Shown: positions 2,306 to 23,247 of the stretch, piece by piece
How the letters are laid out: every line of letters begins with the position of its first letter
Position numbering within the stretch: the stretch's first letter is position 1
Source: Candidatus Margulisiibacteriota bacterium
GTDB taxonomy: Bacteria > Margulisbacteria > WOR-1 > O2-12-FULL-45-9 > XYB2-FULL-48-7
NCBI GenBank assembly: GCA_041665245.1
Contig: JBAYJF010000011.1
Span: 1 to 23,247 of the forward strand
DNA length: 23,247 bases
Reading direction: 5' to 3'
The notes under the pieces: generated by a model
Databases searched by the model: none
What the model was told of the DNA's origin: nothing
Seen by the model: the letters and a program-made list of their open reading frames with translations, nothing else
Program-made: the position numbers and the translations under genes

Positions 2306-2585
2306 ATACCGCAAGGGGGAAGAAGTTAAATATATCTCCCACCGCGACCTAATGCGAGCCTTTCATCGCGCGATCCGGCGAGCTGAGATACCCGTCGCCT
2401 TTTCACAGGGCTTTAATCCTCACATCAAGATCTCCTGGGGGCAAGCGCTAAAAGTCGGCGCCTCCTCTCCCGGTGAATTTGCCGAGATCAATCTTGAAAG
2501 ACACGTTAAACCGCTGGAGCTAATGGAGCGCTTAAACCGCGTTCTCCCGCCGGGACTTGAAATCCTCGAGGCTTTTCTGGTATAA
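2286..2585 (+). CDS. radical SAM-associated DUF2344 (TIGR03936-like) protein, short form
   Basis: 99 aa. Its start overlaps the upstream radical SAM gene by 20 nt. The [27 protein letters not shown] signature matches the DUF2344 N-terminal half. Confidence 0.65.
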
Positions 2586-2586
2586 T
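2557..2586 (+). promoter_or_regulatory. sigma70-type promoter TTGAAA-N18-TATAAT (with TG extension) for rplU
   Basis: -35 at 2557-2562, TGg at 2578-2580, -10 at 2581-2586. The ATG lies 9 nt downstream with no SD. The promoter sits inside the 3' end of the DUF2344 ORF. Confidence 0.55.
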
Positions 2587-2595
2587 ACATCTACT

Positions 2596-2910
2596 ATGTA
2601 CGCAATAATTGAAACCGGCGGAAAACAACAGGTCGTTTATCCAGGAGATATCCTGGACGTTGAATTGATCGAAGAAAAAGAAAAAGTTACTTTCACCAAT
2701 GTCCTGCTCTTCGCGGATGGGGACAAAGTAGAGATCGGAACGCCTTATGTAAAAGGGGCCAAAGTTTCCGCTACGGTCCTTAGCCCGATGATCAAAGACG
2801 ATAAAGTTACCACTTTTAAGTATAAAAACAAGACCAATTACCACCGAACGATCGGACACAGACAAAGATATACCCGTGTAAAGATAGAGGAGATCAAAAA
2901 TGGCGCATAA
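2596..2910 (+). CDS. rplU: 50S ribosomal protein L21
   Basis: [11 protein letters not shown]... is the canonical L21 N-terminus. I used the internal ATG at 2596 rather than the ORF-track start at 2557. 104 aa. Confidence 0.95.
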
Positions 2911-3139
2911 GAAGGGCGGCGGAACGTCTAGAAACGGCAGAGATTCAAACGCACAAAGATTAGGAGTGAAAGTATTCGGCGGACAGACCGTCCCGGCCGG
3001 AAGCATCATCGTTCGCCAGCGCGGAACCAGGTTTTTCCCGGGATCTAACGTTGGAATCGGCAAGGATTATACTCTTTTCGCAAAAGCAGCCGGCGTTGTT
3101 GTATACAAAGGGAAAACCGTAAACGTCCAGCCAGCCTAA
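2900..3139 (+). CDS. rpmA: 50S ribosomal protein L27
   Basis: [24 protein letters not shown]... is canonical L27 with no N-terminal propeptide. Overlaps the rplU stop by 11 nt. Confidence 0.95.
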
Positions 3140-7219: not shown

Positions 7220-10200
7220 ATGGATACGCCTAAATACCATATAAATAGCGACGGTTCGTTTGTTATTGAAAACTATAACAGCGCCCCTACTTTTTCAAGC
7301 TTTTTCCCGGGAATAGCGGGAATTTTTGGCTCTCCAATGTGGGTTTTTTATACCAACCGCGGCCAGTGCATTACCTCCGCCGGCGTTGAAGATAAAAATG
7401 GCGCTATCATCGAATTTAACGCCGCAAACAAAGCCTATCGAACCGTCTCCCTTCAAGGGTTCAGGACCTTTATTAAGGTGGACGGGAAATATTACGAGCC
7501 TTTCAGTGAAAGGAACCAGAACAAAAGAGAAATGTTCATTTATCCCGATAGCCTCAAGATCGTGGAAAGGAACAGCCCGCTTAAGATAGAGATCGAAATA
7601 ACCTACTTTACGGTCCCGAATGAAGCCTTCCCCGCCCTGGCTCGGATCGTCAAAATAACCAATCTATCGGCAAAGGCAAGAAAGATCGAAGTAATTGACG
7701 GTCTGCCGATCGTGATCCCTTTTGGTTTTAACAATTCGCTCCTAAAAATGATAAGCCAGACCATTGAAGCCTGGTGCGTTGTAGAAAATATTGAAAAGAA
7801 CGCTCCTTTTTACAAGCTAAAGGTTATGCCGGCTGACGCTTCCGAAACTAAATATATCGAACAAGGGAATTTTTTTGTATCATTCGCAAATATAAAAGGA
7901 AAAGATGTTTCTTCCGATATAATCATAAACCGAACCTCGATCTTTGGCCAAAACACCAGCCTTGAATTGCCGATAAGTTTCATTGATAGCAAGAATTTTC
8001 TCCCTCCTAAAAACCAACAAACCGAAGGGATCACCCCGGCGGCTTTTTCATATAATAAGGCTTCTTTGCCCGGCAAAGGATCTTTTGAGATCTGCTCGAT
8101 CCTGGGAAGAGCGGAAAACCTTCAATCCCTGAATAAAATAAAAAAACGGGTCACCAATCGAAAATACTTGGGGGGAAAACTCGCCGAAAACCGGGGATTG
8201 ATCGATTCTATCTGCGATTCGATCCATTCGCAAACTGCGGCGCATAATTTCGACCTATATTCTAAAACAACCTTCCTCGACAATGTAATGCGCGGCGGAC
8301 TTCCGGTGAAAGCCGGCAAGAACACGCTCTATGTTTATTATCGCAAGCATGGGGATATGGAACGGGACTACAACGATTTCAAGCTTATGCCGACCTATTT
8401 CTCGCAGGGGAACGGAAATTACCGCGATGTAAACCAAAACAGAAGGAACGATCTCTTTTTCTTTCCGGAAATAAACGATAAAAATATCATTCGATTTTAT
8501 AACCTGATCCAGTTGGACGGCTATAATCCGCTGGTAGTCATAGGCAGTAAATTCTATTTAAAGTCGAAAGAAGACGCAAAAGGCCTGCTGGATACCCACG
8601 TAAAAGAGATAAAAGACGGCTGGGCCAAGATCATGTCAAACCCTTTTATTCTCGGTATTTTATTAAAAGAAATGGAAAAAAGGGACGTTGAATGGAAAAC
8701 CTCCCGCGAAGAATTCATAAATGACCTGCTGGCTAAGGTCGAGATAGAGGAAGGAGCTTCGCATGGAGAAGGCTTCTGGACCGACCATTTCGCCTACAAT
8801 ACGGACCTGCTGGAAAGTTTTGAAGGGATCTATCCAGAAAAAGTAAAAGAGCTATTTTTCGATAAAAAGATCTTTACCTTTTTTGATAATGACCATGTTG
8901 TCGTAGACCGAAAAGAGAAATACCGCCTGGTCGGAGGAAATGTCCGACAATATGAAAGCGTCAAACTCGATAATGAAAAAAACCGGCTGATCGTTGGCCG
9001 AGAAACGCATCCAAACCTTGCCAGGAAAGAGCAAGGCAAGGGAGAAATTTACCGAACAACATTGATAGCTAAAATTCTCTGTATTGTCGCAAGCAAAGCG
9101 GCCTCCTTTGACGCAGAGGGGATCGGACTGGAGATGGAAGCGGAAAAACCGGACTGGTATGATGCGCTGAACGGCCTTCCCGGGCTTCTTGGCTCATCCC
9201 TTTCTGAAACATTGGAGCTTAAAAGGCTCTGCGCGTTCACCCTTAAATATCTTGGTCATGAAAATGAAATTCAGCTGCCAATAGAATTACTCGATTTCAT
9301 TGAAGGTCTAAAGGGCAGTATAACTTCAAACGACAGCTTCGCTTATTGGAAAACAGCCTATGACCTAAAAGAAACCTATCGAAATAAGACGAGGCTTGGG
9401 ATCGGCGGAGAAGAAAAACCGCTTTCAAGTAGCGCTGCAACGGAATTCCTAAACAATGTAGTCACAAAATGCGACCTGGCTGCCAAAAAAGTCCTGGAAA
9501 AATATAACAACTACTACACCTATTTCATCAATGAAGTTGAAGACTTTGAATTAAGCACATCGAAAGAAATTATCATCAAGAAATTCAATCAAAAACCCCT
9601 CCCTCTATTTCTGGAAGGTTTTGTTCATGCCCTTAAAGTTGAGAAAGACAAAAATATCCCGAAAATGGTAAAGCAAAGCCCTCTGTACGATAAAAAGCTA
9701 AAGATGTACAAAGTAAATTCATCGCTGAACAACACTTCCATGGAGATCGGGCGCGCTAGGGTCTTCACTCCCGGCTGGCTGGAGAATGAATCGATCTGGC
9801 TGCACATGGAATACAAATATATCCTTGAATTATTAAAAGCCGGAATGCACAAAGAATTTTTCGGTGATTTCAAGAATGTCCTAGTTCCCTACATGGACGC
9901 GAATCAATACAAACGAAGCACCTTGGAAAACTCTTCTTTTATCGTTAGTAGCGCAAACCCAAATAAGGAGAATCATGGCCGTGGATTTATTGCCCGACTC
10001 TCCGGCGGCGCCGCCGAATTTATCGATATGTGGATCATAATGATGGCCGGCAAAAAACTCTTTTCTCTCGATGAAAAGGGTCAACTCATATTTAAGCTTA
10101 CCCCTACCCTTCCGGCTTGGCTATTTAAAAACGGAGAATTGTCCTTCAAACTGCTTAGCACAATTGATGTAACCTACAAAAACCCGAAGAAGAAAAACAC

Positions 10201-10348
10201 TTTCGATGGCGGCGTATCGCCGATATCCTACAAATTAACCCTAGATACCGATGAAGAAGTAGAAATTAGTTCACCTATTATCCACGAACCGCATGCAAGC
10301 CAGATCCGAGAAAGAAAAGTTAAAAAGATCGTTGTTCTTCTTTCATAA
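7220..10348 (+). CDS. large GH94-clan glycoside phosphorylase-like protein (specificity unknown)
   Basis: 1042 aa. Four motifs occur in the same order as in the bona fide GH94 gene at 13577. YRDVNQN (8420-8440) matches FRDSNQD. DWYDALNG (9152-9175) matches DWNDCLNL. ENESIWLH (9782-9805) matches ENGAIFCH. RLSGGAA matches WLTGSAC. Confidence 0.6.
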   Translation: MDTPKYHINSDGSFVIENYNSAPTFSSFFPGIAGIFGSPMWVFYTNRGQCITSAGVEDKNGAIIEFNAANKAYRTVSLQGFRTFIKVDGKYYEPFSERNQNKREMFIYPDSLKIVERNSPLKIEIEITYFTVPNEAFPALARIVKITNLSAKARKIEVIDGLPIVIPFGFNNSLLKMISQTIEAWCVVENIEKNAPFYKLKVMPADASETKYIEQGNFFVSFANIKGKDVSSDIIINRTSIFGQNTSLELPISFIDSKNFLPPKNQQTEGITPAAFSYNKASLPGKGSFEICSILGRAENLQSLNKIKKRVTNRKYLGGKLAENRGLIDSICDSIHSQTAAHNFDLYSKTTFLDNVMRGGLPVKAGKNTLYVYYRKHGDMERDYNDFKLMPTYFSQGNGNYRDVNQNRRNDLFFFPEINDKNIIRFYNLIQLDGYNPLVVIGSKFYLKSKEDAKGLLDTHVKEIKDGWAKIMSNPFILGILLKEMEKRDVEWKTSREEFINDLLAKVEIEEGASHGEGFWTDHFAYNTDLLESFEGIYPEKVKELFFDKKIFTFFDNDHVVVDRKEKYRLVGGNVRQYESVKLDNEKNRLIVGRETHPNLARKEQGKGEIYRTTLIAKILCIVASKAASFDAEGIGLEMEAEKPDWYDALNGLPGLLGSSLSETLELKRLCAFTLKYLGHENEIQLPIELLDFIEGLKGSITSNDSFAYWKTAYDLKETYRNKTRLGIGGEEKPLSSSAATEFLNNVVTKCDLAAKKVLEKYNNYYTYFINEVEDFELSTSKEIIIKKFNQKPLPLFLEGFVHALKVEKDKNIPKMVKQSPLYDKKLKMYKVNSSLNNTSMEIGRARVFTPGWLENESIWLHMEYKYILELLKAGMHKEFFGDFKNVLVPYMDANQYKRSTLENSSFIVSSANPNKENHGRGFIARLSGGAAEFIDMWIIMMAGKKLFSLDEKGQLIFKLTPTLPAWLFKNGELSFKLLSTIDVTYKNPKKKNTFDGGVSPISYKLTLDTDEEVEISSPIIHEPHASQIRERKVKKIVVLLS

Positions 10349-10398
10349 TCCACCTCCCGTTCTATGAAATTTTGACCTATTTTTTACGATAATTGGAC

Positions 10399-11676
10399 AT
10401 GAGTACTGCATCAGTAACTTTAATTAAGCCACCTGTTAACACGCGAGTAACCCTAGGGAATCTCAGGCGAATAGCTCAAAAAATAGCTCTCGACCCTAAG
10501 GAATTATTACCAGTTGAACCTTTTACTAACCTTCATGGAACAAATATTAGAGTAACGGCAAGAACAGCAACTATGGAAAGCTATTTATCCATCTTTCGGG
10601 TCGATCCCGGGGTCAGTTATTTTGTCTCCCCGGTTGGCATCAGTATTGTTGCTTGCGAGCCGGAAAATAGTTCCGAAAGCGATCGTTACGTAGAAGAGCG
10701 CAAGCTCGTGGTTGAGTGGGCTGCCTTAGATCAGCCTGTCCAGAAAGGTCCCGATTATGAATGGAACCATTATACAACCTGCTATGCGCGTGCTGTCGTA
10801 AAGAACAAAATTCCCCTTGCCAGCTCGTTTATGATCAAGGTCCCTTATTTCGCAAGACCAGCGCCGGGACAGGGTGACAATGGCGGCGAGCCGCGAAACA
10901 TTGCCGGATATCTAAGATGTTTTCTATTTTCCTGGTCAGACATCGAAAGCAGAGAGCTCCCCTTCGACTCTTTATTTTTACCAAATTTAGATTGGAATAT
11001 TATCTCCCACCCGTCGCCCCATCTGCCAGTACTCCCAATACACCCGGAGCGTCCCATTATTCATGAAACAATGTCCGACCACAAAGAAGTTTATACTGCA
11101 TTAACCCATTTTCATCCCTCAAAGAATAATAAAGTATTGATCCTTAACTTGGACGCACATCACGATTTTGGGTATGGAAATGAGAACCTCTCTACTTTAA
11201 GTTGCGGTAATTGGGCCGGCTGGGCCGAAAGGGATGGGTTTGCGCGCGTAGTCCATCTTCCGTCATATTTTAGAAATGCAAACTATGCCCTTCCACCGGC
11301 GGAAAGACAGGAAAACAACTGGAATACCGAAAGCCGCCGCCGTTCAATCCTTGAAGAAGTCCAATTAATCCTTCAGGGCGAAGATATCTCCGAAATCTGG
11401 CTAACCATTGACGATGATTCTTTCTCGCTTCGGGCACCCGCTAATAAATACGAGGGCAACTATGCTAAAGAAGCCTGGACCGGTAGACCGTATCACATGC
11501 AGCCCGCCGAGATCGAAAAAGAGCTTCTCGCTCTGAAAGAATTTTTAACGGTAAACGGCATACAATTACACCGAATCTTGCCCTGCTCTTCGCCTGAATA
11601 TTTAGGAATACCTACAAAAGAATCCTCCGAATATATACGCACAATAGACAAATTAATCCAGCAGGTTTTTATCTAA
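10399..11676 (+). CDS. hypothetical protein with an arginase-fold-like (UPF0489-like) C-terminal half
   Basis: 425 aa from ATG 10399 (the ORF track starts at TTG 10393). SDHKEVY...VLILNLDAHHDFG (DAHHD = 11152-11166) and IWLTIDDDSF (11404-11424) resemble arginase-superfamily metal motifs. The N-terminal ~220 aa are unassigned. Confidence 0.5.
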   Translation: MSTASVTLIKPPVNTRVTLGNLRRIAQKIALDPKELLPVEPFTNLHGTNIRVTARTATMESYLSIFRVDPGVSYFVSPVGISIVACEPENSSESDRYVEERKLVVEWAALDQPVQKGPDYEWNHYTTCYARAVVKNKIPLASSFMIKVPYFARPAPGQGDNGGEPRNIAGYLRCFLFSWSDIESRELPFDSLFLPNLDWNIISHPSPHLPVLPIHPERPIIHETMSDHKEVYTALTHFHPSKNNKVLILNLDAHHDFGYGNENLSTLSCGNWAGWAERDGFARVVHLPSYFRNANYALPPAERQENNWNTESRRRSILEEVQLILQGEDISEIWLTIDDDSFSLRAPANKYEGNYAKEAWTGRPYHMQPAEIEKELLALKEFLTVNGIQLHRILPCSSPEYLGIPTKESSEYIRTIDKLIQQVFI

Positions 11677-15923: not shown

Positions 15924-16367
15924 ATGAAATTAATAAAAATATCCCTTATCGTAGTAATTATTATTTCTGCGATCCTCATAGGATATTATTTTGTTAATAA
16001 AAACCAAGCAACCCCCGGCACTATGATCGAGGAGAAGATCACCGTCATCAATAACACGCCGGATGAAATAAAATTTGTCAGCTGCCGGGCGACCGCAAAA
16101 GGGACAATTGAAACAACGACCATTTTTGGCCCGATCCTATCTAACAAAAACAGCACCGGCTTTCTAAAAGTATCGTATCCGAACGGGATCTTCACGGTCG
16201 AAGCAACGCAGTTCATTAAGGGGAAAGAAGTTACCGCAAGCCCGTTCACCGCACATATGAAGAAAGAAGCACCGCTAACGCCCGTTACACTGACCCTAGG
16301 GACAATTCCTTGGGGAAAAGACCAAGTTAAAGCAGTTTGGCAAAAAGTCGAATGGGACTTGCCTTAG
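15924..16367 (+). CDS. small membrane-anchored hypothetical protein
   Basis: 147 aa. Starts 4 nt after the GH94 stop. N-terminal TM anchor KISLIVVIIISAILIGYYF followed by a beta-rich domain. No family recognised. Confidence 0.55.
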   Translation: MKLIKISLIVVIIISAILIGYYFVNKNQATPGTMIEEKITVINNTPDEIKFVSCRATAKGTIETTTIFGPILSNKNSTGFLKVSYPNGIFTVEATQFIKGKEVTASPFTAHMKKEAPLTPVTLTLGTIPWGKDQVKAVWQKVEWDLP

Positions 16368-17101
16368 GCCACGCTTCCGGCACCAATGATCCTTCTCGCA
16401 ACAACTAATTCCGCATAAGGACTATCTTTCCCTTCCGCTATTGGCTTCAAGTCCGTCCCACTAATTACTAGTTTTCTATTATTATCAAGAGTAAGGACAT
16501 GAACTCCAGGGTTTATGGAAGGTTCAACAACATAAACGCCCATTCCTTCCCAATCATATCTTATCCTCATGCCAGGATTAACTTTCCGCATAATTGCGCC
16601 TTCCGGCAGCATTACGCCAGTTTTTAAAAGTTTATTGATTGCCGTAATAAGAAAATAAAGACTATCCGCCCTTACGCGCATACCAGCGCTTGTGAACCTG
16701 GCTTCAATCCCTTGAGGAAAAATCCCGATATCGTGCCCATAGTTTATTGCATCGACTATTTCAATCAACAGTTTGCCTTTAACTTTACCGACCTCATATT
16801 TGTCATTGCCTTCCCTGACAGAAACCCGATCAATAACAAGGTCGCGAAATTCGATCTCTTGTATGCAATCTCGAATTGCATCTGTAAAGAACGTTAAAAC
16901 TCGTTGGACTCCCCCAACTTGATCGTCCAGAACTTCGATCGCAATTTCCGGGGAAACAGTTCTTTCTCTAATGGCTCTTTTTACTGCCTCAAAATCTTCC
17001 AAACGACAGCGCCGGCCAGCCGGAGTGATAATTTCTTTGCTTAATACTCTCCCTCTATATTCTGGTTTTCGCGCCATTTGTTGTATGTGTGATAATTGCA
17101 T
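16364..17101 (-). CDS. hypothetical protein (no family recognised)
   Basis: 245-aa ORF with no TM segment and no motif I can name. Its stop overlaps the stop of the convergent + strand gene (TTAG at 16364-16367). Confidence 0.6.
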   Translation of the reverse strand: MQLSHIQQMARKPEYRGRVLSKEIITPAGRRCRLEDFEAVKRAIRERTVSPEIAIEVLDDQVGGVQRVLTFFTDAIRDCIQEIEFRDLVIDRVSVREGNDKYEVGKVKGKLLIEIVDAINYGHDIGIFPQGIEARFTSAGMRVRADSLYFLITAINKLLKTGVMLPEGAIMRKVNPGMRIRYDWEGMGVYVVEPSINPGVHVLTLDNNRKLVISGTDLKPIAEGKDSPYAELVVARRIIGAGSVA

Positions 17102-17233: not shown

Positions 17234-18082
17234 TTATTTCGTCCCAAACCTCGTCGTATAAACCGCCCCTAATCCGCAAAGGCAGGCAATTAGTTTAACC
17301 AAGAACCCTACAAAGGGGATAAATCCAACCAGGCTTAAAAGCAATACGCCAAGCAAAGTTTCGGTCATCAACGAAAGACCTTTAATTCTGAAGGCATAAA
17401 ATGTTTTTTTGCCAAGGAGATGCGCCGCCGCCGTATAGCCAAAAATACCGGCCGACATCGCCAAAATGATCCAGACCGGCACCAAAAGCATGCCGACCAG
17501 AGAGATAAACAACACGATAATTATTGGAATAAATAAGACCAACAACAGCGTTCCGATCAAAAAGCTGACCAACACATCTTTTTCGATCCGCCCCGAAACT
17601 TTTCCGATCTGTTTTGTAAATATGGCTACGAGAATAATTGTTAAGATAATAAAACCGATAAAATTAAGCACTTCAAAAATTGCGATCCCTGTTAAGAACC
17701 CTTCTTTGGTGAAAAATGAAACCACTGGAGATACCGCCGGGATCGAAACCTCAACTATATCTCCTTTCAATATTGCCCCTGGTTCCTTCATTATCCTCCC
17801 GCCAACCGAAACAACGCTCCCTCCGACCATGGCAGAATCTTTTAAGAAAACCGACCCGCCAACGCAAACCACATCCTCATCTACCCGCCCATAGATGGTA
17901 ATAGATCCACCAACGTCTACGGCAGTTTTAACGACGGACCCTTCGGGGATAGTAATACTTTCGCCGATCTTAATAAGGGATTGTTTTTCTTTTTCCAGTT
18001 CTTTAACAATGGCAAAACATGAAACTCCGGCGGAAATAACAAGCATTGCAACAAGCGAAGAGAATAATATTTTTTTGAGCAT
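17234..18082 (-). CDS. exported beta-helix-repeat (bactofilin-like) domain fused to a multi-TM membrane domain
   Basis: 282 aa. Signal/anchor MLKKILFSSLVAMLVISAGVSCFA. Repeats VGGSITIYGRVDEDVVCVGGSVFLKDSAMVGGSVVSVGGRI. At least 4 hydrophobic helices in the C-terminal half. GGAGG SD 7 nt upstream of the ATG. Confidence 0.75.
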   Translation of the reverse strand: MLKKILFSSLVAMLVISAGVSCFAIVKELEKEKQSLIKIGESITIPEGSVVKTAVDVGGSITIYGRVDEDVVCVGGSVFLKDSAMVGGSVVSVGGRIMKEPGAILKGDIVEVSIPAVSPVVSFFTKEGFLTGIAIFEVLNFIGFIILTIILVAIFTKQIGKVSGRIEKDVLVSFLIGTLLLVLFIPIIIVLFISLVGMLLVPVWIILAMSAGIFGYTAAAHLLGKKTFYAFRIKGLSLMTETLLGVLLLSLVGFIPFVGFLVKLIACLCGLGAVYTTRFGTK

Positions 18083-18155: not shown

Positions 18156-18229
18156 TGGCTGGGGGACAGGGGCTCGAACCCCGATTCTCGCCTTCAAAGG
18201 GCGGTGTCCTACCATTAGACGATCCCCCA
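18156..18229 (-). tRNA. tRNA-Gln (anticodon UUG), CCA encoded
   Basis: The 74-nt reverse complement is TGGGGGATCGTCTAATGGTAGGACACCGCCCTTTGAAGGCGAGAATCGGGGTTCGAGCCCCTGTCCCCCAGCCA. It has a 7-bp acceptor stem, anticodon loop CTTTGAA, a TTCGAGC T-loop, and UGGGG...CCCCAGCCA ends as in bacterial tRNA-Gln. Confidence 0.9.
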
Positions 18230-18241
18230 ACGCACTTCGTG

Positions 18242-18277
18242 CAAATAACAAATTCCAAATGAACAAATGACAAATTA
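18242..18277 (+). repeat. five phased CAAAT repeats (CAAATNN heptads)
   Basis: CAAAT begins at 18242, 18249, 18256, 18264 and 18271 (spacing 7, 7, 8, 7), immediately upstream of the tRNA-Gln 5' end. Confidence 0.6.
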
Positions 18278-18322
18278 TTGAATTAATATTTAATAAAAAA
18301 TATAAGCTGAAAGCATACATCC

Positions 18323-18350
18323 ATTTGACATTTGTAATTGGTCATTTGTC
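18323..18350 (+). repeat. inverted array of the same heptad (ATTTGNN x3 plus one ATTGG)
   Basis: ATTTG at 18323, 18330 and 18344, and ATTGG at 18337, all in 7-nt phase. 18340-18353 is the reverse complement of 18258-18271 apart from a 1-nt bulge. Confidence 0.6.
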
Positions 18351-18372
18351 ATTAATTAGTATATCCGTTTTG

Positions 18373-18402
18373 TTGAAATTTTTCCACTTTTTTGACGATA
18401 AT
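18373..18402 (+). promoter_or_regulatory. sigma70-type promoter TTGAAA-N18-GATAAT for the giant ORF
   Basis: -35 at 18373-18378, -10 at 18397-18402. ATG 18412 is 9 nt downstream. This is the same geometry as the rplU promoter. Confidence 0.5.
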
Positions 18403-18411
18403 ATAAGCGGA

Positions 18412-21400
18412 ATGGTAAATCAAATTGGCCCGCGGCCAACATTAGTACAAAGGCTTATAGCCCCCACAGTAACCTGGGGGTTGAGCCACATATTAACGTA
18501 TCCAAACCGGAAAGCGGTCGCCGGGAGCTTGCGCGAGTTAGCAATAGGTTTCACTTTTGAACAGCGGTCAGAATTAATTCACCTTCTCTTTGTTAACGGG
18601 GTCATCCAGACAAAATTTTCTTCTCTTTCTCCCGAAGAACTTCAGCATTATCATATTAAAAAAGACCTTCGTCTAAAAACATTAAGAACATTTATATATT
18701 ATTTTAATCGGTCCGATTCATTTCCGGAATACAAGATCCATTTCATCGGCGCCCAGTTTACGCTTGAAAAAGTTGAAGTCAAAGCCCCCGCAGCAGTTCC
18801 TGAAATAGAAGTAAACGCAACACAACCCAGTTTACAAATTAGTTTGCACAGAATATTTTATCACGCTAATCGCCCATTAAGCTTAAGGCAGATCCACGCT
18901 GAGCTCTCGAGCCCAGTTGAAGAGGGAGTCCCTGCAATTCAGGCATCTACAGAGGATATTAGTTTCTTTTTAGGAAGAATGATGGAAAAAGGGTCAATAT
19001 TAAGAACTTTCCCGGGAACAGACGATTTACCGCGGTTTTGCGCGTCATTCCTAGCAAAAAGATGGACAAATGAAGGGGTCCTCTGTCCCCTTTCTTATTC
19101 TGTTGAGGATGGAGACCATTCTGCAGCGATCTATCGGGGAGACGCTGAAGCTCATTGCCGAAAAGGAACCCTGCATAAAGTATTAACAATTGAAGGACAA
19201 CTGCTTTATGCCACGCCTTTATATATGCTTACCCATAAAGATGAATATGCTTTGCTATCTACAGGCAAGAAGGAAAAAGCAACGATCATCTTCTGCCAAG
19301 CAGCTGATATTCCGGTTCTTGTCGAAAAAGGAAAAATACTTCTCGGAAGAACAGACGAAGGACAAGAGATCAATATTCTTGCTGAACATCAACAAGCATA
19401 TCGATTTGAAATATTTAACATTTTTGCCCAAGAAGCATTGCACTCCGTCCCCGAAACTGACCAGGCCGCTACCTATCAAAGATTGCGGGTCGCTTTCAAT
19501 GCCGGATATCTGGCGCATGCCCCCACTTCAATTGACGCCTATATTTCTGAGGCACGATTAGTTAGAGGCATGGGCGGAGGAGACAATGCAATAACTATGG
19601 CTCTCCTGGGAGACAAAAAAGGAGTGGCGCAATTAAGGAAAGGAACGGTCTTCACTCCTGCTGAAATTGAAGTTCTTGATAGATCCTTTGATGCATTAAA
19701 CCTGCTCACGCATCTGCCTTTCCCATATAAACCGGGTTTTTCCCACTGCCTGCAGAATTTTCTCTATTTTCTTTACGATGCTTCCTTAAATTATGACGTT
19801 TACCTTCTAGTCCTCGCTAGAAAATACGAAGGGATGGTCAAACTTTCACAAACGGGAGGACAAATACCTGAATCTGTCGCGCTCGACATGGAGCTGGTCG
19901 TTGCTCCACAAGCTAAGAAGAGGGGGTTCCCATTTTTACACGATGAAGCATGCGACCTTCTGGCTCGCCAAGCAAACCCTGAAGGATACCAGCGCGCATC
20001 CGCCCAACTCCAAACTTTAGCCCAAATGCCGCTGGATAGGGCAAAGAGCCGCTTACATCAAACAGTTGATTCAATTAAAAAAAGAATGGTCAAAGAATTG
20101 GGGTTTCCGATATCGGTCAAATATAGAATAAAAGAGGTCTCATCGGCCATGCAAAAGGAAAGCATAGAAAGAGCCGAATTTTGCGACTTTTTTGGAGGAA
20201 GATTTATTTGCAGCACTTTAGCCGAAGCAAAGGCGGTCTCTGCCTGGCTATCAAATAACCTTATCCCCGTCGGGGAAGCTGATCTGCCACCCGGAACAAA
20301 AGGAGTTGAAGATAATCTTGAAACTCCCAGAAAAACCGGCTGGAAGGGATGGCGCGGCTATTTCTATGTCTCCGATAGAGATAGAATTTCTGAAGGTCCG
20401 ATAATTGCCTCTTTGCAAGTACTAACCACCGATATGGATAAAGCCGACCGCTTGGGAGAATACGGCCATTGGCTCTACAAATCGGTTCGGGCCTCAATAA
20501 AATGGGCTAAAGAGCTTGGTGCAAGATGGAAACAGCAGCTTTTTGATCCTGTCCCAGCAGATGCGTATTCTGGTATCCCATCAGAAGATTATCGCGTCGA
20601 TCAGGAAAGAGCGCAAAAGTATAACACGGTTTTTGTCCTCCCCCTCAAAGCTGGGGATGAAACTCCAAAAGATATTCAGTCCCTTTTTGCAGCAGGATCT
20701 CCGGCGATCTTGCGCCCTGGCAGGGAATCGCCGGTATATGATCTGGTAGCCTTTCGCTCTTTTGGAAATCTAATGACCGAATCGCATATCTGTGAGGTAT
20801 ATACCCTTTCGTATAGCAAAACACAGGGACGCATCGTTGCTGCTCCATATAAAAAAGGACAGGCCAGATGCGGTTTTAAAGAAAAACTCCCAAGGCACGC
20901 TTTTGTTATTATTAGGGAAGATCCGGCGGGAGGGAAACCGCTTGGCGATGCAGACCTCGCAGAGATCGTGAATAACAAATCCAGCTCCTTTCGAGCAGTT
21001 TTTCTCGCCAGGCTTGAACTTGAAAGAAGAAAAAGAAACCGAGGAAGCGTACAAATGACGCACGAAGTTGTAATTGGTAGCTTCTCACAAGTAGGTATCC
21101 AAAATCCGGCGGCAAGAAGATATTTCCTCACTGCTCAAAACGGCCGAGAAAAGATCCAGGAAGCACTCTCAAGGCTCGGGCTAAAAGACGAAATAGAACT
21201 CTTTGCAGCCATTGGTCTTGATCTTCTTGGCGAGACAAAAATCAAAGAGCTTCTTTCGATCTTCGATGCCAGAGAAGAACATCGCGCCGGGAACAACAAT
21301 ACTTACACGACAACAGTAACTGCCCCCAATCATCGGCAATTGATCCCAACCACATTGAGCGGATTAGAACAATTTGATATCATGCAATTATCGCTTGATG

Positions 21401-21849
21401 TGGAATCGCGCTCTTTAGGAGTAAATCCTGTAAAGATCACCATTCTGTCAAAACCCAAAGGAACGCTTGTTCAATATGGTCAAATAAAAGCAAAGCTTGA
21501 TAATCTAGGATCCGACCCCTTGTTCGCTTCACCGGTCCATGCCGCGGATGATCCATCTGTGTTTTATACGATCGAAGTCGGCCTTTCTACAAAAACCCCC
21601 ATTGCGAACTGGAACACGATTCACGAGATAACCTCCGCAATGCAGGCTTCATTCAGAAAAGGAGGTTTTGTTTCGGTAAAACTAGGAAACATATTGGAAG
21701 GAGAAAGCACGGGTTCTTTTGTTTTTCAGGTCCACGGAATTGATAGCCCTTCGGCAACCGAAAAAAAGATCTCCGAATCCGTTCGTGAATCGATCAGCCC
21801 ATTCTGGGACGCCGAGGAAGGCCGTAACTTTACGGTTACAGTAATTTAA
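18412..21849 (+). CDS. giant divergent RelA/SpoT-homologue (RSH)-like protein with a long N-terminal extension
   Basis: 1145 aa from ATG 18412. RSH synthetase-domain motifs lie at 20125-20157, 20185-20208, 20326-20370 and 20410-20481. A TGS-like segment lies at 20620-20928 and a GREKIQEALSRLGLK...ELFAAIG linker at 21139-21279. See findings. Confidence 0.7.
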   Translation: MVNQIGPRPTLVQRLIAPTVTWGLSHILTYPNRKAVAGSLRELAIGFTFEQRSELIHLLFVNGVIQTKFSSLSPEELQHYHIKKDLRLKTLRTFIYYFNRSDSFPEYKIHFIGAQFTLEKVEVKAPAAVPEIEVNATQPSLQISLHRIFYHANRPLSLRQIHAELSSPVEEGVPAIQASTEDISFFLGRMMEKGSILRTFPGTDDLPRFCASFLAKRWTNEGVLCPLSYSVEDGDHSAAIYRGDAEAHCRKGTLHKVLTIEGQLLYATPLYMLTHKDEYALLSTGKKEKATIIFCQAADIPVLVEKGKILLGRTDEGQEINILAEHQQAYRFEIFNIFAQEALHSVPETDQAATYQRLRVAFNAGYLAHAPTSIDAYISEARLVRGMGGGDNAITMALLGDKKGVAQLRKGTVFTPAEIEVLDRSFDALNLLTHLPFPYKPGFSHCLQNFLYFLYDASLNYDVYLLVLARKYEGMVKLSQTGGQIPESVALDMELVVAPQAKKRGFPFLHDEACDLLARQANPEGYQRASAQLQTLAQMPLDRAKSRLHQTVDSIKKRMVKELGFPISVKYRIKEVSSAMQKESIERAEFCDFFGGRFICSTLAEAKAVSAWLSNNLIPVGEADLPPGTKGVEDNLETPRKTGWKGWRGYFYVSDRDRISEGPIIASLQVLTTDMDKADRLGEYGHWLYKSVRASIKWAKELGARWKQQLFDPVPADAYSGIPSEDYRVDQERAQKYNTVFVLPLKAGDETPKDIQSLFAAGSPAILRPGRESPVYDLVAFRSFGNLMTESHICEVYTLSYSKTQGRIVAAPYKKGQARCGFKEKLPRHAFVIIREDPAGGKPLGDADLAEIVNNKSSSFRAVFLARLELERRKRNRGSVQMTHEVVIGSFSQVGIQNPAARRYFLTAQNGREKIQEALSRLGLKDEIELFAAIGLDLLGETKIKELLSIFDAREEHRAGNNNTYTTTVTAPNHRQLIPTTLSGLEQFDIMQLSLDVESRSLGVNPVKITILSKPKGTLVQYGQIKAKLDNLGSDPLFASPVHAADDPSVFYTIEVGLSTKTPIANWNTIHEITSAMQASFRKGGFVSVKLGNILEGESTGSFVFQVHGIDSPSATEKKISESVRESISPFWDAEEGRNFTVTVI
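20077..20499 (+). other. RelA/SpoT-type nucleotidyltransferase (SYNTH)-like domain
   Basis: RIKEVSSAMQK = RxKxxxSxxxK. DFFGGRFI = DxxAxRxI. GWRGYFYV resembles GYRSYHLVV. SLQVLTTDMDKADRLGEYGHWLYK aligns without gaps to EIQIRTxxMHxxAExGxAAHWxYK. Confidence 0.6.
20620..20928 (+). other. TGS-like domain with insertions
   Basis: VFVLPLKAGD...LRPGRESPVYDLVAF...GRIVAAPY...HAFVIIRE compared with RelA VYVFTPKGD..LPAGSTPLDFAY...GRIVPFTY...DQIEIIT. Confidence 0.4.
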
Positions 21850-22674
21850 TTACGCGGTTTTATAAAGCTCTCTGACAATCTGTTCTTCTTTTTCGGTAAG
21901 GATTTTCCCGCGCCTTTGCATTGTCGTCTTTACAGTCCCAATAAATTTTTCAATCTCCACTTTCCCCACATCTCCCCACGCAAAATTAGGCACAAATTTC
22001 GGCGTCACTCCTCCGCCCCAAACATTCGCCCCCACCCCGATCACCGAACCAGTATTGATCAAGGTTCCTATTCCGGTTTTTGCATAATCCCCGATGAAAC
22101 AACCCAGGAACTGCTGACCAGTATCTATGACCCCTTGCCCCTTCGACCCTTCGACACTTGCAACTTTTACTGTCCCATAATTATTTTTCAGGTTAGAATT
22201 TGTCGTCCCTGCACCAAGATTGACCCACTCCCCGATATACGAATGGCCGATAAAGCCGTAATGCGCTTTGTTGGAATAACCATGAAAGATCGAATGGGTC
22301 ACTTCGCCGCCGATCCGGCATTCGGGGCCAATATAGAGCGGCCCTCTTAAATAACTTTGCGGGCGAATGATCGTATTTTTACCGATATAGATCGGCCCGC
22401 TGCGTGCATCCAGCACGGCACAAGCTTCTATCTCTGCCCCATCTTCTATCACAACGTTTTCTGGAGAATAAATCACCGCCGAAGGATGAATTGACCCTTT
22501 GACCCCTTGACCCTTCGACCCTATGTCTTTTTCCAGATCCTCTTTTAAACTTACTATCAAATCCCATATATACTCGGGTTTTCTTTCAGTGTGCTCGGCT
22601 AATGTTTTTGCCCCGCAGCGCAAGTCTGCAACCTCGCGGGTGTAAGTCAGGGGATAGAAGTTTTCCTTCATCAT
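21850..22674 (-). CDS. left-handed beta-helix (hexapeptide-repeat) GlmU-like sugar nucleotidyl/acyl-transferase family protein
   Basis: 274 aa. N-terminal NFYPLTYTREVADLRCGAKTL resembles the alternative-GlmU-like family (TIGR03991-type). Hexapeptide repeats run through the C-terminal half. The start abuts the ackA stop. Confidence 0.65.
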   Translation of the reverse strand: MMKENFYPLTYTREVADLRCGAKTLAEHTERKPEYIWDLIVSLKEDLEKDIGSKGQGVKGSIHPSAVIYSPENVVIEDGAEIEACAVLDARSGPIYIGKNTIIRPQSYLRGPLYIGPECRIGGEVTHSIFHGYSNKAHYGFIGHSYIGEWVNLGAGTTNSNLKNNYGTVKVASVEGSKGQGVIDTGQQFLGCFIGDYAKTGIGTLINTGSVIGVGANVWGGGVTPKFVPNFAWGDVGKVEIEKFIGTVKTTMQRRGKILTEKEEQIVRELYKTA

Positions 22675-23247
22675 TTAATCGGCCTTTTTCTTAAAATTTT
22701 TGTCTTCGAAAGTATAAGTGAAATTGGTATGAACATCGTAACGGCCCTCAAGGATAGCGATCACGTCTTCAATAAAAACGATCTCCTCGTCCGTCGGAAT
22801 AACAAATACTTTTATCTTTGAATCTTCGGTTGAGATCTCGTTCTCTTTTTCACGGCTAACCGCTGCCGTATTTTTCTTCTTATCGATCGATATCCCCAGA
22901 TTTTCAAGTCCTTCCAGCGTCTTTTCTCTTAATTTCCAATTCAGTTCCCCTGCTCCGGCCGTGAAAACAATAGCATCCACTTTTCCCAACGCCGCAATAT
23001 AAGTTCCAATATATTTTCTTAAACGATAAGATTCGATCTCGATAGCCAATTTTGCGCGATGATCGCCGGCCTCGGCCACTTTTTCAATATCGCGTCGGTC
23101 CATATATTTACCCGTGATCCCAAGCAGTCCACTTTTTTTATTTAATATCGTGTCGATCTCTTCCGCATAAAAGCCTTCCTTTTCGATCATGAACAGGATT
23201 ATCGCCGGATCGATATCACCACAGCGGGTCCCCATCACCGCCCCTTC
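22675..23247 (-). CDS. ackA: acetate kinase, C-terminal part (5' end lies beyond the window)
   Basis: The frame stays open to the window edge. ...EGAVMGTRCGDIDPAII..., FTAGAGE and VFVIPTDEE are conserved acetate/propionate-kinase motifs. Confidence 0.88.
   Translation of the reverse strand, partial: EGAVMGTRCGDIDPAIILFMIEKEGFYAEEIDTILNKKSGLLGITGKYMDRRDIEKVAEAGDHRAKLAIEIESYRLRKYIGTYIAALGKVDAIVFTAGAGELNWKLREKTLEGLENLGISIDKKKNTAAVSREKENEISTEDSKIKVFVIPTDEEIVFIEDVIAILEGRYDVHTNFTYTFEDKNFKKKAD

What the first reader, a model, noticed from the sequence alone, without database searches (positions are those of the whole stretch)
18412..21849. Giant orphan protein built on a highly divergent long RelA/SpoT (RSH) scaffold
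This is the longest ORF in the window: 1145 aa from ATG 18412, monocistronic, with its own promoter and divergent from tRNA-Gln. I cannot assign its first third to any family. The rest lines up in the canonical order with long RSH enzymes (Rel/RelA/SpoT). The matches are RIKEVSSAMQK (20125-20157) = RxKxxxSxxxK, DFFGGRFI (20185-20208) = DxxAxRxI, PRKTGWKGWRGYFYV (20326-20370) = PKxxGY(R/Q)SxHxxV, and SLQVLTTDMDKADRLGEYGHWLYK (20410-20481) = E(I/V)QIRTxxMHxxAExGxAAHWxYK with no internal gaps. These are followed by a TGS-like segment (GRIV conserved), a GREKIQEALSRLGLK...ELFAAIG helical linker like that of RelA, and an ACT/RRM-like tail. Canonical long RSHs are about 700-750 aa. This protein is about 400 aa longer and far more divergent than a housekeeping Rel would be expected to be. 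RSH-fold proteins include alarmone synthetases and toxins that pyrophosphorylate the tRNA 3' CCA end, so a remodelled giant version is a candidate for new signalling or defence biology.
Basis: partly seen in the sequence, partly recalled or inferred. Interest (0 to 1): 0.8.

Follow-up and report, generated by a model that had tools for sequence, protein, structure and literature searches.

The report
Margulisbacteria giant RelA/SpoT homologue lacking catalytic residues
The 1145-residue protein is a real but very divergent member of the RelA/SpoT stress-alarmone enzyme family; it is conserved as a core gene in the uncultured phylum Margulisbacteria rather than being an orphan, and it has lost the key catalytic residues of both of its enzyme domains, so it may be a regulator rather than an enzyme.

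Summary

- **It is a long RSH.** The family profile hits canonical Rel/SpoT at E=6.5e-13. An AlphaFold model (pLDDT 82) matches full-length SpoT, Rel and RelA best (Foldseek E=5e-15).
- **It is not an orphan.** An exhaustive HMMER search found about 15 clusters of 1045-1179 aa relatives at 25-32% identity. All named ones come from Margulisbacteria/WOR-1 MAGs. They share a locus: tRNA-Gln | RSH | alternative GlmU | acetate kinase.
- **There are no defence hallmarks.**
- **Architecture.** A 330-aa N-terminal extension (helical module, winged-helix-like domain, beta-beta-alpha repeats), then pseudo-hydrolase, synthetase, TGS-like domain, helical linker and two ACT-like domains. The zinc finger is absent.
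- **Active sites.** All hydrolase metal and catalytic residues are lost. The synthetase keeps its ATP/Mg residues (R572, K574, K582, D592, R597). The catalytic Glu of E(I/V)QIRT is Ser in 16 of 18 members (His and Ala once each), but Glu in 16/16 sister Margulisbacteria RSHs and 23/23 canonical ones. The guanine-stacking Tyr is Trp.

Most likely this is a lineage-specific Rel derivative working as a nucleotide-binding pseudoenzyme or regulator. An unusual active synthetase is the main rival. I could not determine whether these genomes carry a second RSH.

The parts
18412..21849 (+). Complete gene for the 1145-aa giant RelA/SpoT homologue (NCBI: hypothetical protein WCV91_01665, Candidatus Margulisiibacteriota MAG)
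   Evidence: ORF and translation; identical database entry P0001; start supported by alignment with homologues
18412..18771 (+). N-terminal helical module (aa 1-120), shared with all Margulisbacteria-type RSH families, including the 530-aa short family
   Evidence: AF2 helices 11-26, 33-44, 49-61 and 88-100 plus hairpin 107-120; phmmer hits of aa 1-132 to short-family proteins P0018 and P0031; alignment A2; no Pfam or PDB match
18829..19047 (+). Winged-helix-like domain (aa 140-212); inferred, weak evidence
   Evidence: AF2 topology of three helices plus a beta-hairpin; marginal profile hit to the Hop2 winged helix 2mh2, E=0.098; scattered sub-threshold HTH_20 and TBPIP hits in single members
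19087..19380 (+). Beta-beta-alpha repeat region (aa 226-323) of unknown fold family; P0006 and P0009 carry an extra inserted stretch of about 53 aa here
   Evidence: AF2 secondary structure; insertion visible in alignment A1, columns 308-360
19402..20100 (+). Pseudo-hydrolase (HD-fold) domain, aa 331-563. His-Asp is 'GD' (LLGDKKG, aa 398-404) and ADRLHN is ARKYEG (aa 469-474)
   Evidence: Collinear alignment with canonical Rel; site table shows all 8 HD metal/catalytic positions lost; Foldseek matches to Rel N-terminal-domain crystal structures over about 370 columns
20107..20517 (+). RelA_SpoT synthetase-fold domain, aa 566-702. R572, K574, K582, D592, R597, Q669 and T672 are retained; Trp644 replaces the stacking Tyr; Arg648 replaces His
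   Evidence: Pfam PF04607 aa 572-691; TIGR00691; 1vj7 alignment; site table; 6 of the family's 16 invariant residues lie here
20410..20412 (+). Codon TCT = Ser667, at the position of the catalytic Glu of E(I/V)QIRT (RelSeq E323)
   Evidence: role of D264 and E323 from PMC7983052
20620..20931 (+). TGS-like beta-grasp region with insertions (aa about 737-840, includes GRIV 806-809)
   Evidence: Alignment to canonical TGS segments VYVFTP / LP.GAT..DFAY / G..C.GAKVNG; AF2 strands; Foldseek alignment to full-length SpoT spans about 888 columns; Pfam TGS not detected
20947..21264 (+). Alpha-helical linker (AH-like, aa 846-951), including GREKIQEALSRLGLK...ELFAAIG
   Evidence: AF2 helices; C-terminal profile aligns to the B. 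subtilis Rel segment '...NIQKVADKFNFSNEEDMYAAVG' in 6htq_x
21271..21516 (+). ACT/RRM-like domain 1 (aa 954-1035; family motif I.I..PDR.GLL..IL, TVTAPNHRQL in the window), which follows the helical linker directly, with no zinc-finger domain between them
   Evidence: Profile alignment to the ACT domain of B. subtilis Rel; AF2 beta-alpha-beta-beta-alpha topology; no CxxC or CC.P.PGD motif, Cys positions listed
21559..21846 (+). ACT-like domain 2 (aa 1050-1145), an extra C-terminal beta-alpha-beta-beta-alpha-beta domain that aligns with the canonical terminal ACT in the MAFFT alignment
   Evidence: AF2; alignment A2, columns 1300-1421
18156..18229 (-). tRNA-Gln(UUG), divergent upstream neighbour; this position is conserved in L001 and L002
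18373..18402 (+). Sigma-70-like promoter match TTGAAA-18-GATAAT, 10 nt upstream of the ATG (consensus match only)
21850..22674 (-). Convergent downstream gene, an alternative bacterial GlmU-type hexapeptide transferase. With acetate kinase (22675-23238) it forms the conserved synteny of the family
   Evidence: the same neighbours appear in L002, L004, L005/L006 and L009/L010

Best explanation
The gene encodes the Margulisbacteria-specific, vertically inherited derivative of the long RelA/SpoT (Rel) stringent-response factor. SHOWN: it keeps the whole long-RSH scaffold in order (HD-fold domain, synthetase-fold domain, TGS-like domain, helical linker, ACT-like domain). It has gained a 330-aa N-terminal extension and a second ACT-like domain, and it has lost the zinc-finger domain. 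The hydrolase active site is destroyed, as in E. coli RelA. In the synthetase pocket the residues that hold ATP and Mg2+ in canonical enzymes (R572, K574, K582, D592, R597) are the most conserved positions of the whole protein. The acceptor side is remodelled: the stacking Tyr is Trp644 and His is Arg648. The catalytic Glu is fixed as Ser667 in this clade alone. INFERRED: the protein still binds a nucleotide in this pocket (ATP or an alarmone-like ligand) but does not carry out efficient canonical (p)ppGpp synthesis. It therefore acts as a non-catalytic or weakly catalytic sensor and regulator. Its TGS, helical-linker and ACT domains, and possibly the winged-helix-like N-terminal domain, would couple that binding to partners such as the ribosome, tRNA, other proteins or nucleic acid. 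The identity as a lineage-specific long RSH is near certain (about 0.95). The pseudoenzyme mechanism is the weaker part.
For: - **Homology to long RSHs.** The family profile hits canonical RSHs at E=6.5e-13; the window protein itself hits TIGR00691; Foldseek's top hits are full-length SpoT 7qpr (E=5.4e-15, 888 columns), B. subtilis Rel 6yxa and ribosome-bound RelA 5iqr, on a model with pLDDT 82 and pTM 0.69.
- **Family and lineage.** 15 relatives of 25-32% identity, all named ones from Margulisbacteria/WOR-1.
- **Core-gene status.** tRNA-Gln lies upstream in the window, L001 and L002. Alternative GlmU and acetate kinase lie downstream in the window, L002, L004, L005/6 and L009/10. There is no PADLOC hit.
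- **Phylogeny.** Margulisbacteria-type RSHs form one clade (100/100), and the Ser-bearing giants form a clade within it (100/100).
- **Active sites.** All 8 HD positions are lost. The synthetase R, K, K, D and R are kept. Glu is Ser in 16, His in 1 and Ala in 1 of 18 members, against Glu in 16/16 sister forms and 23/23 canonical ones. All further loci also carry Ser. D264 and E323 are the catalytic Mg2+-site residues and Y308 stacks on guanine in RelSeq (PMC7983052).
- **Constraint on the pocket.** 6 of the 16 invariant residues of the family lie in the synthetase pocket. No convincing compensating acidic residue was found.
Against: - The strong conservation of the Mg2+-binding Asp and the phosphate-binding Arg and Lys residues is what one would also expect of an active enzyme. 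In RelP the Glu contacts Mg2+ only through water (PMC7983052), so a Ser could conceivably be tolerated or the chemistry could be altered.
- I found no second RSH in any genome that carries this protein. If it is the only RSH, a purely non-catalytic role would leave these bacteria without (p)ppGpp synthesis.
- All functional statements rest on sequence and a predicted structure; nothing was assayed.
- The TGS, helical-linker and ACT assignments are below Pfam significance.
- The winged-helix assignment is marginal (E=0.098).
Confidence: 0.6

Rival explanations
1. It is an active pyrophosphokinase. On this reading it is the working, perhaps only, stringent factor of these Margulisbacteria. It would use a non-canonical catalytic arrangement (Ser667 with water-mediated Mg2+, Trp644 stacking) and possibly a different acceptor nucleotide, and it would be monofunctional like RelA.
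For: ATP and Mg residues are invariant or nearly so across members that are 25-32% identical. The aromatic stacking residue is kept as Trp in 34/34 Margulisbacteria-type RSHs, including the Glu-bearing ones that look active. The acceptor pocket is remodelled but strongly conserved (W644, W647, Y650, R648), which suggests a functional ligand site. In RelP the Glu-Mg2+ contact is water-mediated.
Against: The Glu is invariant in 23/23 sampled canonical RSHs and in all 16 sister Margulisbacteria forms, and the literature treats it as a catalytic residue. From my own knowledge, substitutions at this Glu are used as synthetase-dead alleles in Rel enzymes. The Arg of QIRT and the Glu of AE.G are also replaced. 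No compensating carboxylate was identified.
Confidence: 0.3
2. It is a toxic RSH effector or anti-phage defence protein of the toxSAS/CapRel type that pyrophosphorylates tRNA or depletes nucleotides.
For: CapRel appears among the Foldseek hits (E=4e-5). The gene lies next to a tRNA gene, and in one relative (L009) a restriction-modification/Abi island lies upstream.
Against: Long-RSH structures match ten orders of magnitude better than CapRel. The full HD, TGS and ACT scaffold is present. There is no PADLOC hit and no small adjacent antitoxin-like gene on the same strand. The housekeeping synteny is conserved across deep divergence, which indicates vertical inheritance. The catalytic Glu that toxSAS enzymes need is missing.
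Confidence: 0.04
3. It is a decaying or mis-assembled gene (pseudogene or chimeric MAG artefact) with no function.
For: The protein comes from a metagenome-assembled contig. Single-sequence database scores are weak. Single-sequence AlphaFold failed.
Against: The 3.4-kb frame is uninterrupted. Full-length homologues occur in many independent assemblies, with 16 invariant and 28 near-invariant residues. The AF2 model built with the family alignment is confident.
Confidence: 0.01

Closest known systems
E. coli RelA (monofunctional long RSH; ribosome-bound structures 5iqr and 5l3p)
   Same: Same domain order. The HD-fold domain is retained as a catalytically dead pseudo-hydrolase in front of a RelA_SpoT synthetase fold, followed by TGS, a helical linker and a C-terminal ACT/RRM. 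It is the third-ranked distinct structure among the Foldseek hits.
   Different: RelA keeps the catalytic Glu, the stacking Tyr and the zinc-finger domain, and it is about 744 aa. This protein has Ser at the Glu position, Trp for Tyr, no zinc finger, a 330-aa N-terminal extension and a second ACT-like domain.
Bifunctional Rel/SpoT (full-length A. baumannii SpoT 7qpr; B. subtilis Rel 6yxa and 6htq; RelSeq 1vj7)
   Same: Best structural matches over up to 888 aligned columns and best sequence matches in the PDB. Rel is regarded as the ancestral long RSH and is the form found in the sister phylum Cyanobacteria (PMC3153485).
   Different: Both catalytic centres of Rel/SpoT are intact. Here all HD metal and catalytic residues and the synthetase Glu are replaced. 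Sequence identity is only 11-18%.
Short (about 530 aa) and Glu-retaining giant Margulisbacteria RSHs found here (P0018-type; P0026, P0029, P0038)
   Same: Same clade (100/100). They share the N-terminal helical module, the dead HD site, the Tyr-to-Trp change and the loss of the QIRT Arg. P0029 and P0038 also share the giant architecture.
   Different: They keep the catalytic Glu (16/16). The short family lacks the winged-helix/repeat region and everything after the synthetase domain. It sits in a different conserved locus, HisG | RSH | PanD, or next to HisRS/AspRS.
Plant RSH1 (a long RSH that lost synthetase activity by active-site substitution; from my own knowledge, not tested here)
   Same: A precedent for a long RSH that keeps the synthetase fold after losing a critical catalytic-site residue.
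   Different: RSH1 remains an active hydrolase. Here the hydrolase is dead as well, so no canonical activity is predicted at either site.
toxSAS / CapRel tRNA pyrophosphokinases (7ztb)
   Same: Same synthetase fold (Foldseek E=4e-5).
   Different: toxSAS proteins are small, single-catalytic-domain proteins in toxin-antitoxin or defence loci with an intact active site. This is a 1145-aa full long-RSH scaffold in a housekeeping locus without the catalytic Glu.

Membership tests
Long RSH (Rel/RelA/SpoT) | RelA_SpoT synthetase-fold domain (Pfam PF04607) | tested here: met
   The window protein scores 18 bits, E=0.0035, below the gathering score of 27. Family members P0002 (39 bits), P0005 (30.7) and P0014 (40) pass it. 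The family profile hits canonical RSHs at E=6.5e-13. Foldseek matches Rel and SAS structures.
Long RSH (Rel/RelA/SpoT) | HD-fold hydrolase or pseudo-hydrolase domain immediately N-terminal to the synthetase domain | tested here: met
   TIGR00691 and 1vj7 alignments start inside the HD domain (aa 439-468 onward). The YAPLA/ENF/KL..R landmarks are collinear. Foldseek aligns about 370 columns to HD-plus-synthetase crystal structures. Pfam HD_4 is not detected in the window protein.
Long RSH (Rel/RelA/SpoT) | C-terminal regulatory region: TGS, helical (AH) and ACT/RRM domains | tested here: inconclusive
   No Pfam TGS, RelA_AH_RIS or ACT hit at significance. Collinear alignment, a C-terminal profile hit to the B. 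subtilis Rel C-terminal region (E=0.0085, AH and ACT segments), AF2 topology and the 888-column Foldseek alignment to full-length SpoT all point the same way.
Long RSH (Rel/RelA/SpoT) | Zinc-finger (ZFD/RIS) domain with the CC.P.PGD motif between AH and ACT | tested here: not met
   No Cys after residue 820. The canonical CCRPIPGD block aligns to gaps or to non-Cys sequence.
Catalytically active (p)ppGpp synthetase | Mg2+/catalytic pair Asp (RelSeq D264) plus Glu (E323), with the stacking Tyr (Y308) | tested here: not met
   D592 is present. Glu is Ser667 (Ser in 16, His in 1, Ala in 1 of 18 family members). Tyr is Trp644. Residue roles are from PMC7983052. Activity itself cannot be tested with these tools.
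Catalytically active (p)ppGpp hydrolase (HD superfamily) | The His...His-Asp...Asp metal ligands and the ED catalytic pair | tested here: not met
   All eight positions are substituted in the window protein except a stray Asp in 'GD', and none is conserved in the family.
toxSAS / CapRel-type toxin or defence RSH | Small stand-alone synthetase-domain protein with an adjacent antitoxin or fused antitoxin domain, in a variable or mobile locus | tested here: not met
   1145 aa with the full long-RSH scaffold. Both neighbours are on the opposite strand (tRNA-Gln, GlmU-like). The locus is conserved across the family. No PADLOC hit.
Margulisbacteria giant-Ser RSH clade (defined here) | N-terminal extension plus long-RSH core, Ser at the catalytic Glu position, GW.GWRGY loop, locus next to alternative GlmU and acetate kinase | tested here: met
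   In the NJ tree the window protein is the earliest-branching member of the clade.

The most novel reading that the evidence does not exclude
A phylum-wide 'doubly dead' long RSH: a stringent-factor scaffold that has given up both alarmone synthesis and hydrolysis and has been re-purposed as a pure sensor. On this reading it binds ATP or (p)ppGpp in the vestigial synthetase pocket. It reads ribosome or tRNA status, or small ligands, through its TGS and double ACT domains. It passes the signal on through its N-terminal winged-helix-like domain, possibly by binding nucleic acid directly, for example the heptad-repeat palindrome in its own promoter region. No non-catalytic long RSH of this kind has been described, to my knowledge.
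Probability: 0.25. Interest if true: 0.75.

Novelty: new variant of a known kind. Interest (0 to 1): 0.55.

Why it matters
Long RSH enzymes are the master switches of the bacterial stringent response. Every characterised one keeps at least one working catalytic centre.

This clade is conserved across an uncultured sister phylum of Cyanobacteria. It retains the full scaffold under purifying selection but lacks the hydrolase site and the synthetase's catalytic Glu. One of two things must follow:

- the synthetase chemistry tolerates a configuration thought to be dead, which is relevant to mechanism and to inhibitor design; or
- the scaffold can evolve into a non-catalytic regulator, which would be a bacterial pseudoenzyme of a new type.

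The finding also raises the question of how, or whether, Margulisbacteria make (p)ppGpp. The Glu-bearing sister family supplies a natural control for experiments. Automated annotation already labels some members 'RelA/SpoT domain-containing protein', so the novelty lies in the architecture and the active-site state, not in the domain assignment.

Tried and rejected
- **Word-indexed homologue search, single protein:** found only the protein itself. The same tool with the family profile returned canonical RSHs but not the family members. The 'orphan' impression is therefore a sensitivity artefact; exhaustive HMMER resolved it.
- **Genome scan with the single protein:** found nothing. The mixed alignment A3 was too diverse to seed a scan. 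The A1 scan found 4 loci and the metagenome scan found 6.
- **Exact look-up of the window protein's contigs:** not on record.
- **Single-sequence AlphaFold:** useless, pLDDT 34.6.
- **N-terminal region against PDB and Pfam:** nothing significant, only a marginal Hop2 winged helix.
- **C-terminal single sequence against PDB:** only a chance-level sigma-factor hit, rejected.
- **hisG hit in NCBIfam:** E=0.15, rejected as noise.
- **Test for a second RSH in the same genome:** I compared locus-tag prefixes, assembly accessions and contig lengths of giant-Ser and short-family members. There was no overlap, but sampling is too sparse to conclude anything.
- **Literature:** no paper links Margulisbacteria to ppGpp. 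The KEGG tables of the Margulisbacteria genome paper do not list relA or spoT KOs at all, which is uninformative.
- **Compensating acidic residue near Ser667:** E575 and D679 are clade-specific. E575 follows K574 on the strand, so it should face away from the pocket. D679 looks like a one-residue shift of the canonical AE.G Glu. Neither is convincing.
- **Defence models:** no hit.
- **First phylogeny script:** timed out and was rewritten.

Full report
**Observation.** The window is a 23-kb contig of about 45% G+C. It carries ordinary bacterial metabolic genes: a radical SAM protein, an amino-acid kinase, a solute-binding protein, GlmS, GH42, GH94 and acetate kinase.

ORF 18412-21849 (+) is the longest in the window and translates to 1145 aa. 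A TTG at 18325 would add 29 residues, but homologues start at the position of the ATG. tRNA-Gln(UUG) lies divergently at 18156-18229. The downstream gene is convergent and abuts the stop codon, so the gene stands alone on its strand. A TTGAAA-18-GATAAT promoter-like match lies at 18373-18402; this is only a consensus match.

**Is it an RSH?** On its own the sequence gives only weak signals:
- Pfam RelA_SpoT at E=0.0035 and 18 bits, below the gathering score of 27.
- TIGR00691 spoT_relA at E=7.9e-5 over aa 468-711.
- RelSeq 1vj7 at E=0.075 over aa 439-714.

These become decisive once relatives are added. An exhaustive HMMER search of 1.84 billion representatives found 43 hits. Fifteen of them are clear relatives at 25-32% identity; the full-length ones are 1045-1179 aa and the rest are partial. 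A profile of this family hits canonical long RSHs carrying RelA_SpoT, HD_4, TGS and ACT at E=6.5e-13 in a database of 5.8 billion proteins. Three members pass Pfam's own RelA_SpoT threshold.

AlphaFold2 with the family alignment gave a confident model (pLDDT 82, pTM 0.69). The single-sequence run had failed. Foldseek against the PDB ranks the hits as follows:
- Full-length SpoT 7qpr first (E=5.4e-15, about 888 aligned columns).
- B. subtilis Rel 6yxa.
- Ribosome-bound RelA 5iqr.
- The N-terminal-domain crystal structures of RelSeq, Rel from S. aureus, T. thermophilus and M. tuberculosis.
- CapRel only at E=4e-5, and the small alarmone synthetases at about 1e-3.

So the C-terminal 800 residues are a complete long-RSH scaffold.

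**Not an orphan.** The word-indexed search found only the protein itself. NCBI lists it as hypothetical protein WCV91_01665 from a Candidatus Margulisiibacteriota MAG on this very 23,247-bp contig. That result explains the orphan impression.

Every named relative comes from Candidatus Margulisbacteria/Margulisiibacteriota, from candidate division WOR-1, or from unclassified 'bacterium' MAGs. UniRef already calls two of them 'RelA/SpoT domain-containing protein'.

The locus is conserved:
- tRNA-Gln(UUG) lies divergently upstream in the window, L001 and L002.
- A hexapeptide/NTP-transferase gene lies convergently downstream, followed by acetate kinase. In the window this transferase is TIGR03991 alt_bact_glmU. 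The same pair appears in the window, L002, L004, L005/L006 and L009/L010.

Conserved housekeeping synteny across proteins only 25-32% identical means vertical inheritance of a core gene. No PADLOC model matches the protein or its unannotated neighbours.

**Architecture.** This comes from the AF2 model and the alignments:
- aa 1-120: a helical module plus hairpin.
- aa 140-212: three helices and a beta-hairpin, which looks like a winged helix. The only database support is marginal: Hop2 wHTH at E=0.098 and scattered sub-threshold HTH hits.
- aa 226-323: beta-beta-alpha repeats. Two relatives have an extra inserted stretch of about 53 aa here.
- aa 331-563: HD-fold domain.
- aa 566-702: synthetase fold.
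- aa about 737-840: a TGS-like beta-grasp with insertions.
- aa 846-951: helical linker. The C-terminal family profile aligns this segment and the next domain to the B. subtilis Rel C-terminal region (6htq_x, E=0.0085).
- aa 954-1035: an ACT-like domain with the family motif 'PDR.GLL'.
- aa 1050-1145: a second beta-alpha-beta-beta-alpha-beta domain.

The canonical zinc-finger block (CC.P.PGD) is absent, and there is no cysteine after residue 820. Pfam does not recognise the TGS or ACT domains, so these assignments rest on collinearity, the profile hit and the predicted structure.

**Active sites.** I aligned the HD-plus-synthetase core of 57 sequences and read the canonical positions. The set held 18 members of the window's clade, 3 other giant forms, 13 short forms and 23 canonical RSHs.

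*Hydrolase.* All eight metal or catalytic positions are replaced in every Margulisbacteria-type protein: the HP His, the LHD His-Asp, the ED pair and the ADRLHN Asp, His and Asn. In the window protein the sequences are LLGDKKG and ARKYEG. This is a pseudo-hydrolase, as in RelA.

*Synthetase.* The RxKxxxSxxxK Arg and Lys residues (R572, K574, K582), the Mg2+ Asp (D592), R597, Q669 and T672 are kept. The guanine-stacking Tyr is Trp in 34/34 Margulisbacteria-type proteins. The His of YQSxH is Arg or Lys, and the Arg of QIRT is Leu or Met.

The catalytic Glu of E(I/V)QIRT is Ser in 16, His in 1 and Ala in 1 of the 18 members of the window's clade. It is Glu in all 16 other Margulisbacteria-type proteins and in all 23 canonical ones. 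All additional loci recovered from genomes and metagenomes also read Ser. The literature identifies RelSeq D264 and E323 (RelP D107 and E174) as the catalytic Mg2+-site residues and Y308 as the stacking residue, and it notes that in RelP the Glu-Mg2+ contact is water-mediated (PMC7983052).

Six of the 16 invariant residues of the family lie in the synthetase pocket: K574, D592, W644, T672, H686 and K690. The pocket is therefore under strong constraint. I found no convincing compensating carboxylate.

**Relatives inside the phylum.** The exhaustive search also revealed a family of 520-580 aa proteins (P0018-type, 18 clusters at 90% identity). One is named as Margulisbacteria. They share the first 130 residues and the dead HD domain. 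They have a strong RelA_SpoT match (E down to 2.5e-17), an intact Glu and nothing after the synthetase domain. They sit in their own conserved locus, HisG | RSH | PanD, or beside HisRS/AspRS.

Three further giant forms (P0026 at 933 aa, P0029 at 1082 aa, P0038 at 1129 aa) keep the Glu.

A neighbour-joining tree of the core (352 columns, 100 bootstraps) gives these results:
- All Margulisbacteria-type RSHs form one clade (100/100).
- The Ser-bearing giants form a clade (100/100), with the window protein as its earliest branch.
- The short family forms a clade (100/100).
- The Glu-bearing forms together are sister to the Ser clade.

The giant architecture is thus probably ancestral, and the Glu-to-Ser change is a derived, fixed feature of one clade. 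This is a quick distance tree, so the deep topology should be checked by maximum likelihood.

**What I could not settle.** The question is whether genomes with the Ser-bearing giant also encode a Glu-bearing RSH, a canonical Rel, or small alarmone synthetases or hydrolases. Locus-tag prefixes, assembly accessions and contig lengths of the two families never coincide. No short-family cluster lies on the 1.35-Mb or 462-kb contigs that carry the giant. That leans towards mutually exclusive lineages, but sampling is sparse and canonical RSHs could not be screened per genome. No paper in the library links Margulisbacteria with ppGpp.

**Mechanism.** Shown:
- It is a long-RSH scaffold.
- It is a core gene of one phylum.
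- The hydrolase site is dead.
- The nucleotide and Mg2+ residues of the synthetase are conserved.
- The catalytic Glu is absent and the acceptor side is remodelled.
- The zinc finger is lost.
- There are extra N-terminal and C-terminal domains.

Inferred: the synthetase pocket still binds a nucleotide but does not perform efficient canonical pyrophosphotransfer, so the protein acts as a sensor or regulator (a pseudoenzyme). I put this at about 0.6.

The main rival, at about 0.3, is an active pyrophosphokinase with an unusual catalytic arrangement and perhaps a different acceptor. That rival would be favoured if this is the only RSH in these genomes. A toxin or defence role (about 0.04) and an artefact (about 0.01) are disfavoured.

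**Comparison and novelty.**
- It works most like RelA in having a dead HD domain in front of a synthetase fold with a regulatory tail.
- Structurally it is closest to full-length SpoT and Rel.
- It fails the tests for an active synthetase, an active hydrolase and a zinc-finger domain.
- It carries domains that no described long RSH has.

It is therefore a new variant of a known kind rather than a new kind. Automated annotation has already attached the RelA/SpoT label to some members. The interesting part is the doubly degenerate active-site state fixed across a clade, together with a natural Glu-bearing sister family that makes the question directly testable.

Noticed in passing
window 18241-18356 (between tRNA-Gln and the RSH gene): The motif ACAAATGACAAAT and its variants occur 7 times in 116 bp. 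Three are on the plus strand (18241-18275) and four on the minus strand (18323-18356), forming a large imperfect palindrome. Across the whole window there are 9 matches with up to 2 mismatches, against 0.98 expected. It could be an operator in the divergent promoter region. It does not appear to be conserved: L001 shows no such repeat on reading the region (an 800-bp gap), and in L002 the gap between the tRNA and the gene is too short to hold it (about 50 bp).
   Followed up: partly
proteins P0018, P0020, P0023, P0025, P0028, P0031, P0032, P0039, P0082-P0092; loci L007, L011, L012, L013: A second Margulisbacteria RSH family of about 520-580 aa. It has the shared N-terminal module, a dead HD domain, an apparently intact synthetase (Glu retained) and no C-terminal regulatory domains. 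Its locus is conserved as HisG | RSH | PanD (once with PRPP synthetase, once beside HisRS/AspRS). It is a candidate for the real alarmone synthetase of part of the phylum.
   Followed up: partly
window 7220-10348 (+) and 10393-11676 (+): A 1042-aa protein with no Pfam hit is a distant relative of GH149 beta-1,3-glucan phosphorylases (NCBIfam NF058639, E=7.8e-28, far below the cutoff). It is followed by a 427-aa ORF with no hit at all. Both sit in a glycan-utilisation cluster with a solute-binding protein, GH42 and GH94.
   Followed up: partly
L009 1860-9590 (upstream of the P0002 homologue): In one relative the space upstream of the RSH gene holds a restriction-modification and abortive-infection island: Eco57I-like enzyme, DNA methylase, RE_Alw26IDE, AbiTii and GIY-YIG. 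This is the position where tRNA-Gln sits in other members, and it looks like an integration hotspot unrelated to the RSH itself.
   Followed up: no
window 21850-22674 (-): The downstream alternative-GlmU-type gene is only 274 aa here (273 aa in L002, 262 in L005) but 361-441 aa in L009 and L004. The window copy keeps only a trace of the nucleotidyltransferase half (NTP_transf_4 residues 4-30), so that half appears largely deleted in some lineages.
   Followed up: no
window 2286-2585 (+) and 2506-3063 (-): The DUF2344 ORF after the radical SAM gene covers only profile positions 1-94 of 176. It is overlapped by an unannotated 185-aa antisense ORF. This may be a truncated or frameshifted gene.
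   Followed up: no
window 16364-17101 (-), 17234-18082 (-), 15924-16367 (+): Three ORFs between GH94 and tRNA-Gln have no Pfam, NCBIfam or PADLOC match.
   Followed up: partly
proteins P0006 and P0009 (alignment A1, columns 308-360): Two family members carry an extra stretch of about 53 aa in the N-terminal beta-beta-alpha repeat region, consistent with that region being built from a repeated unit.
   Followed up: no
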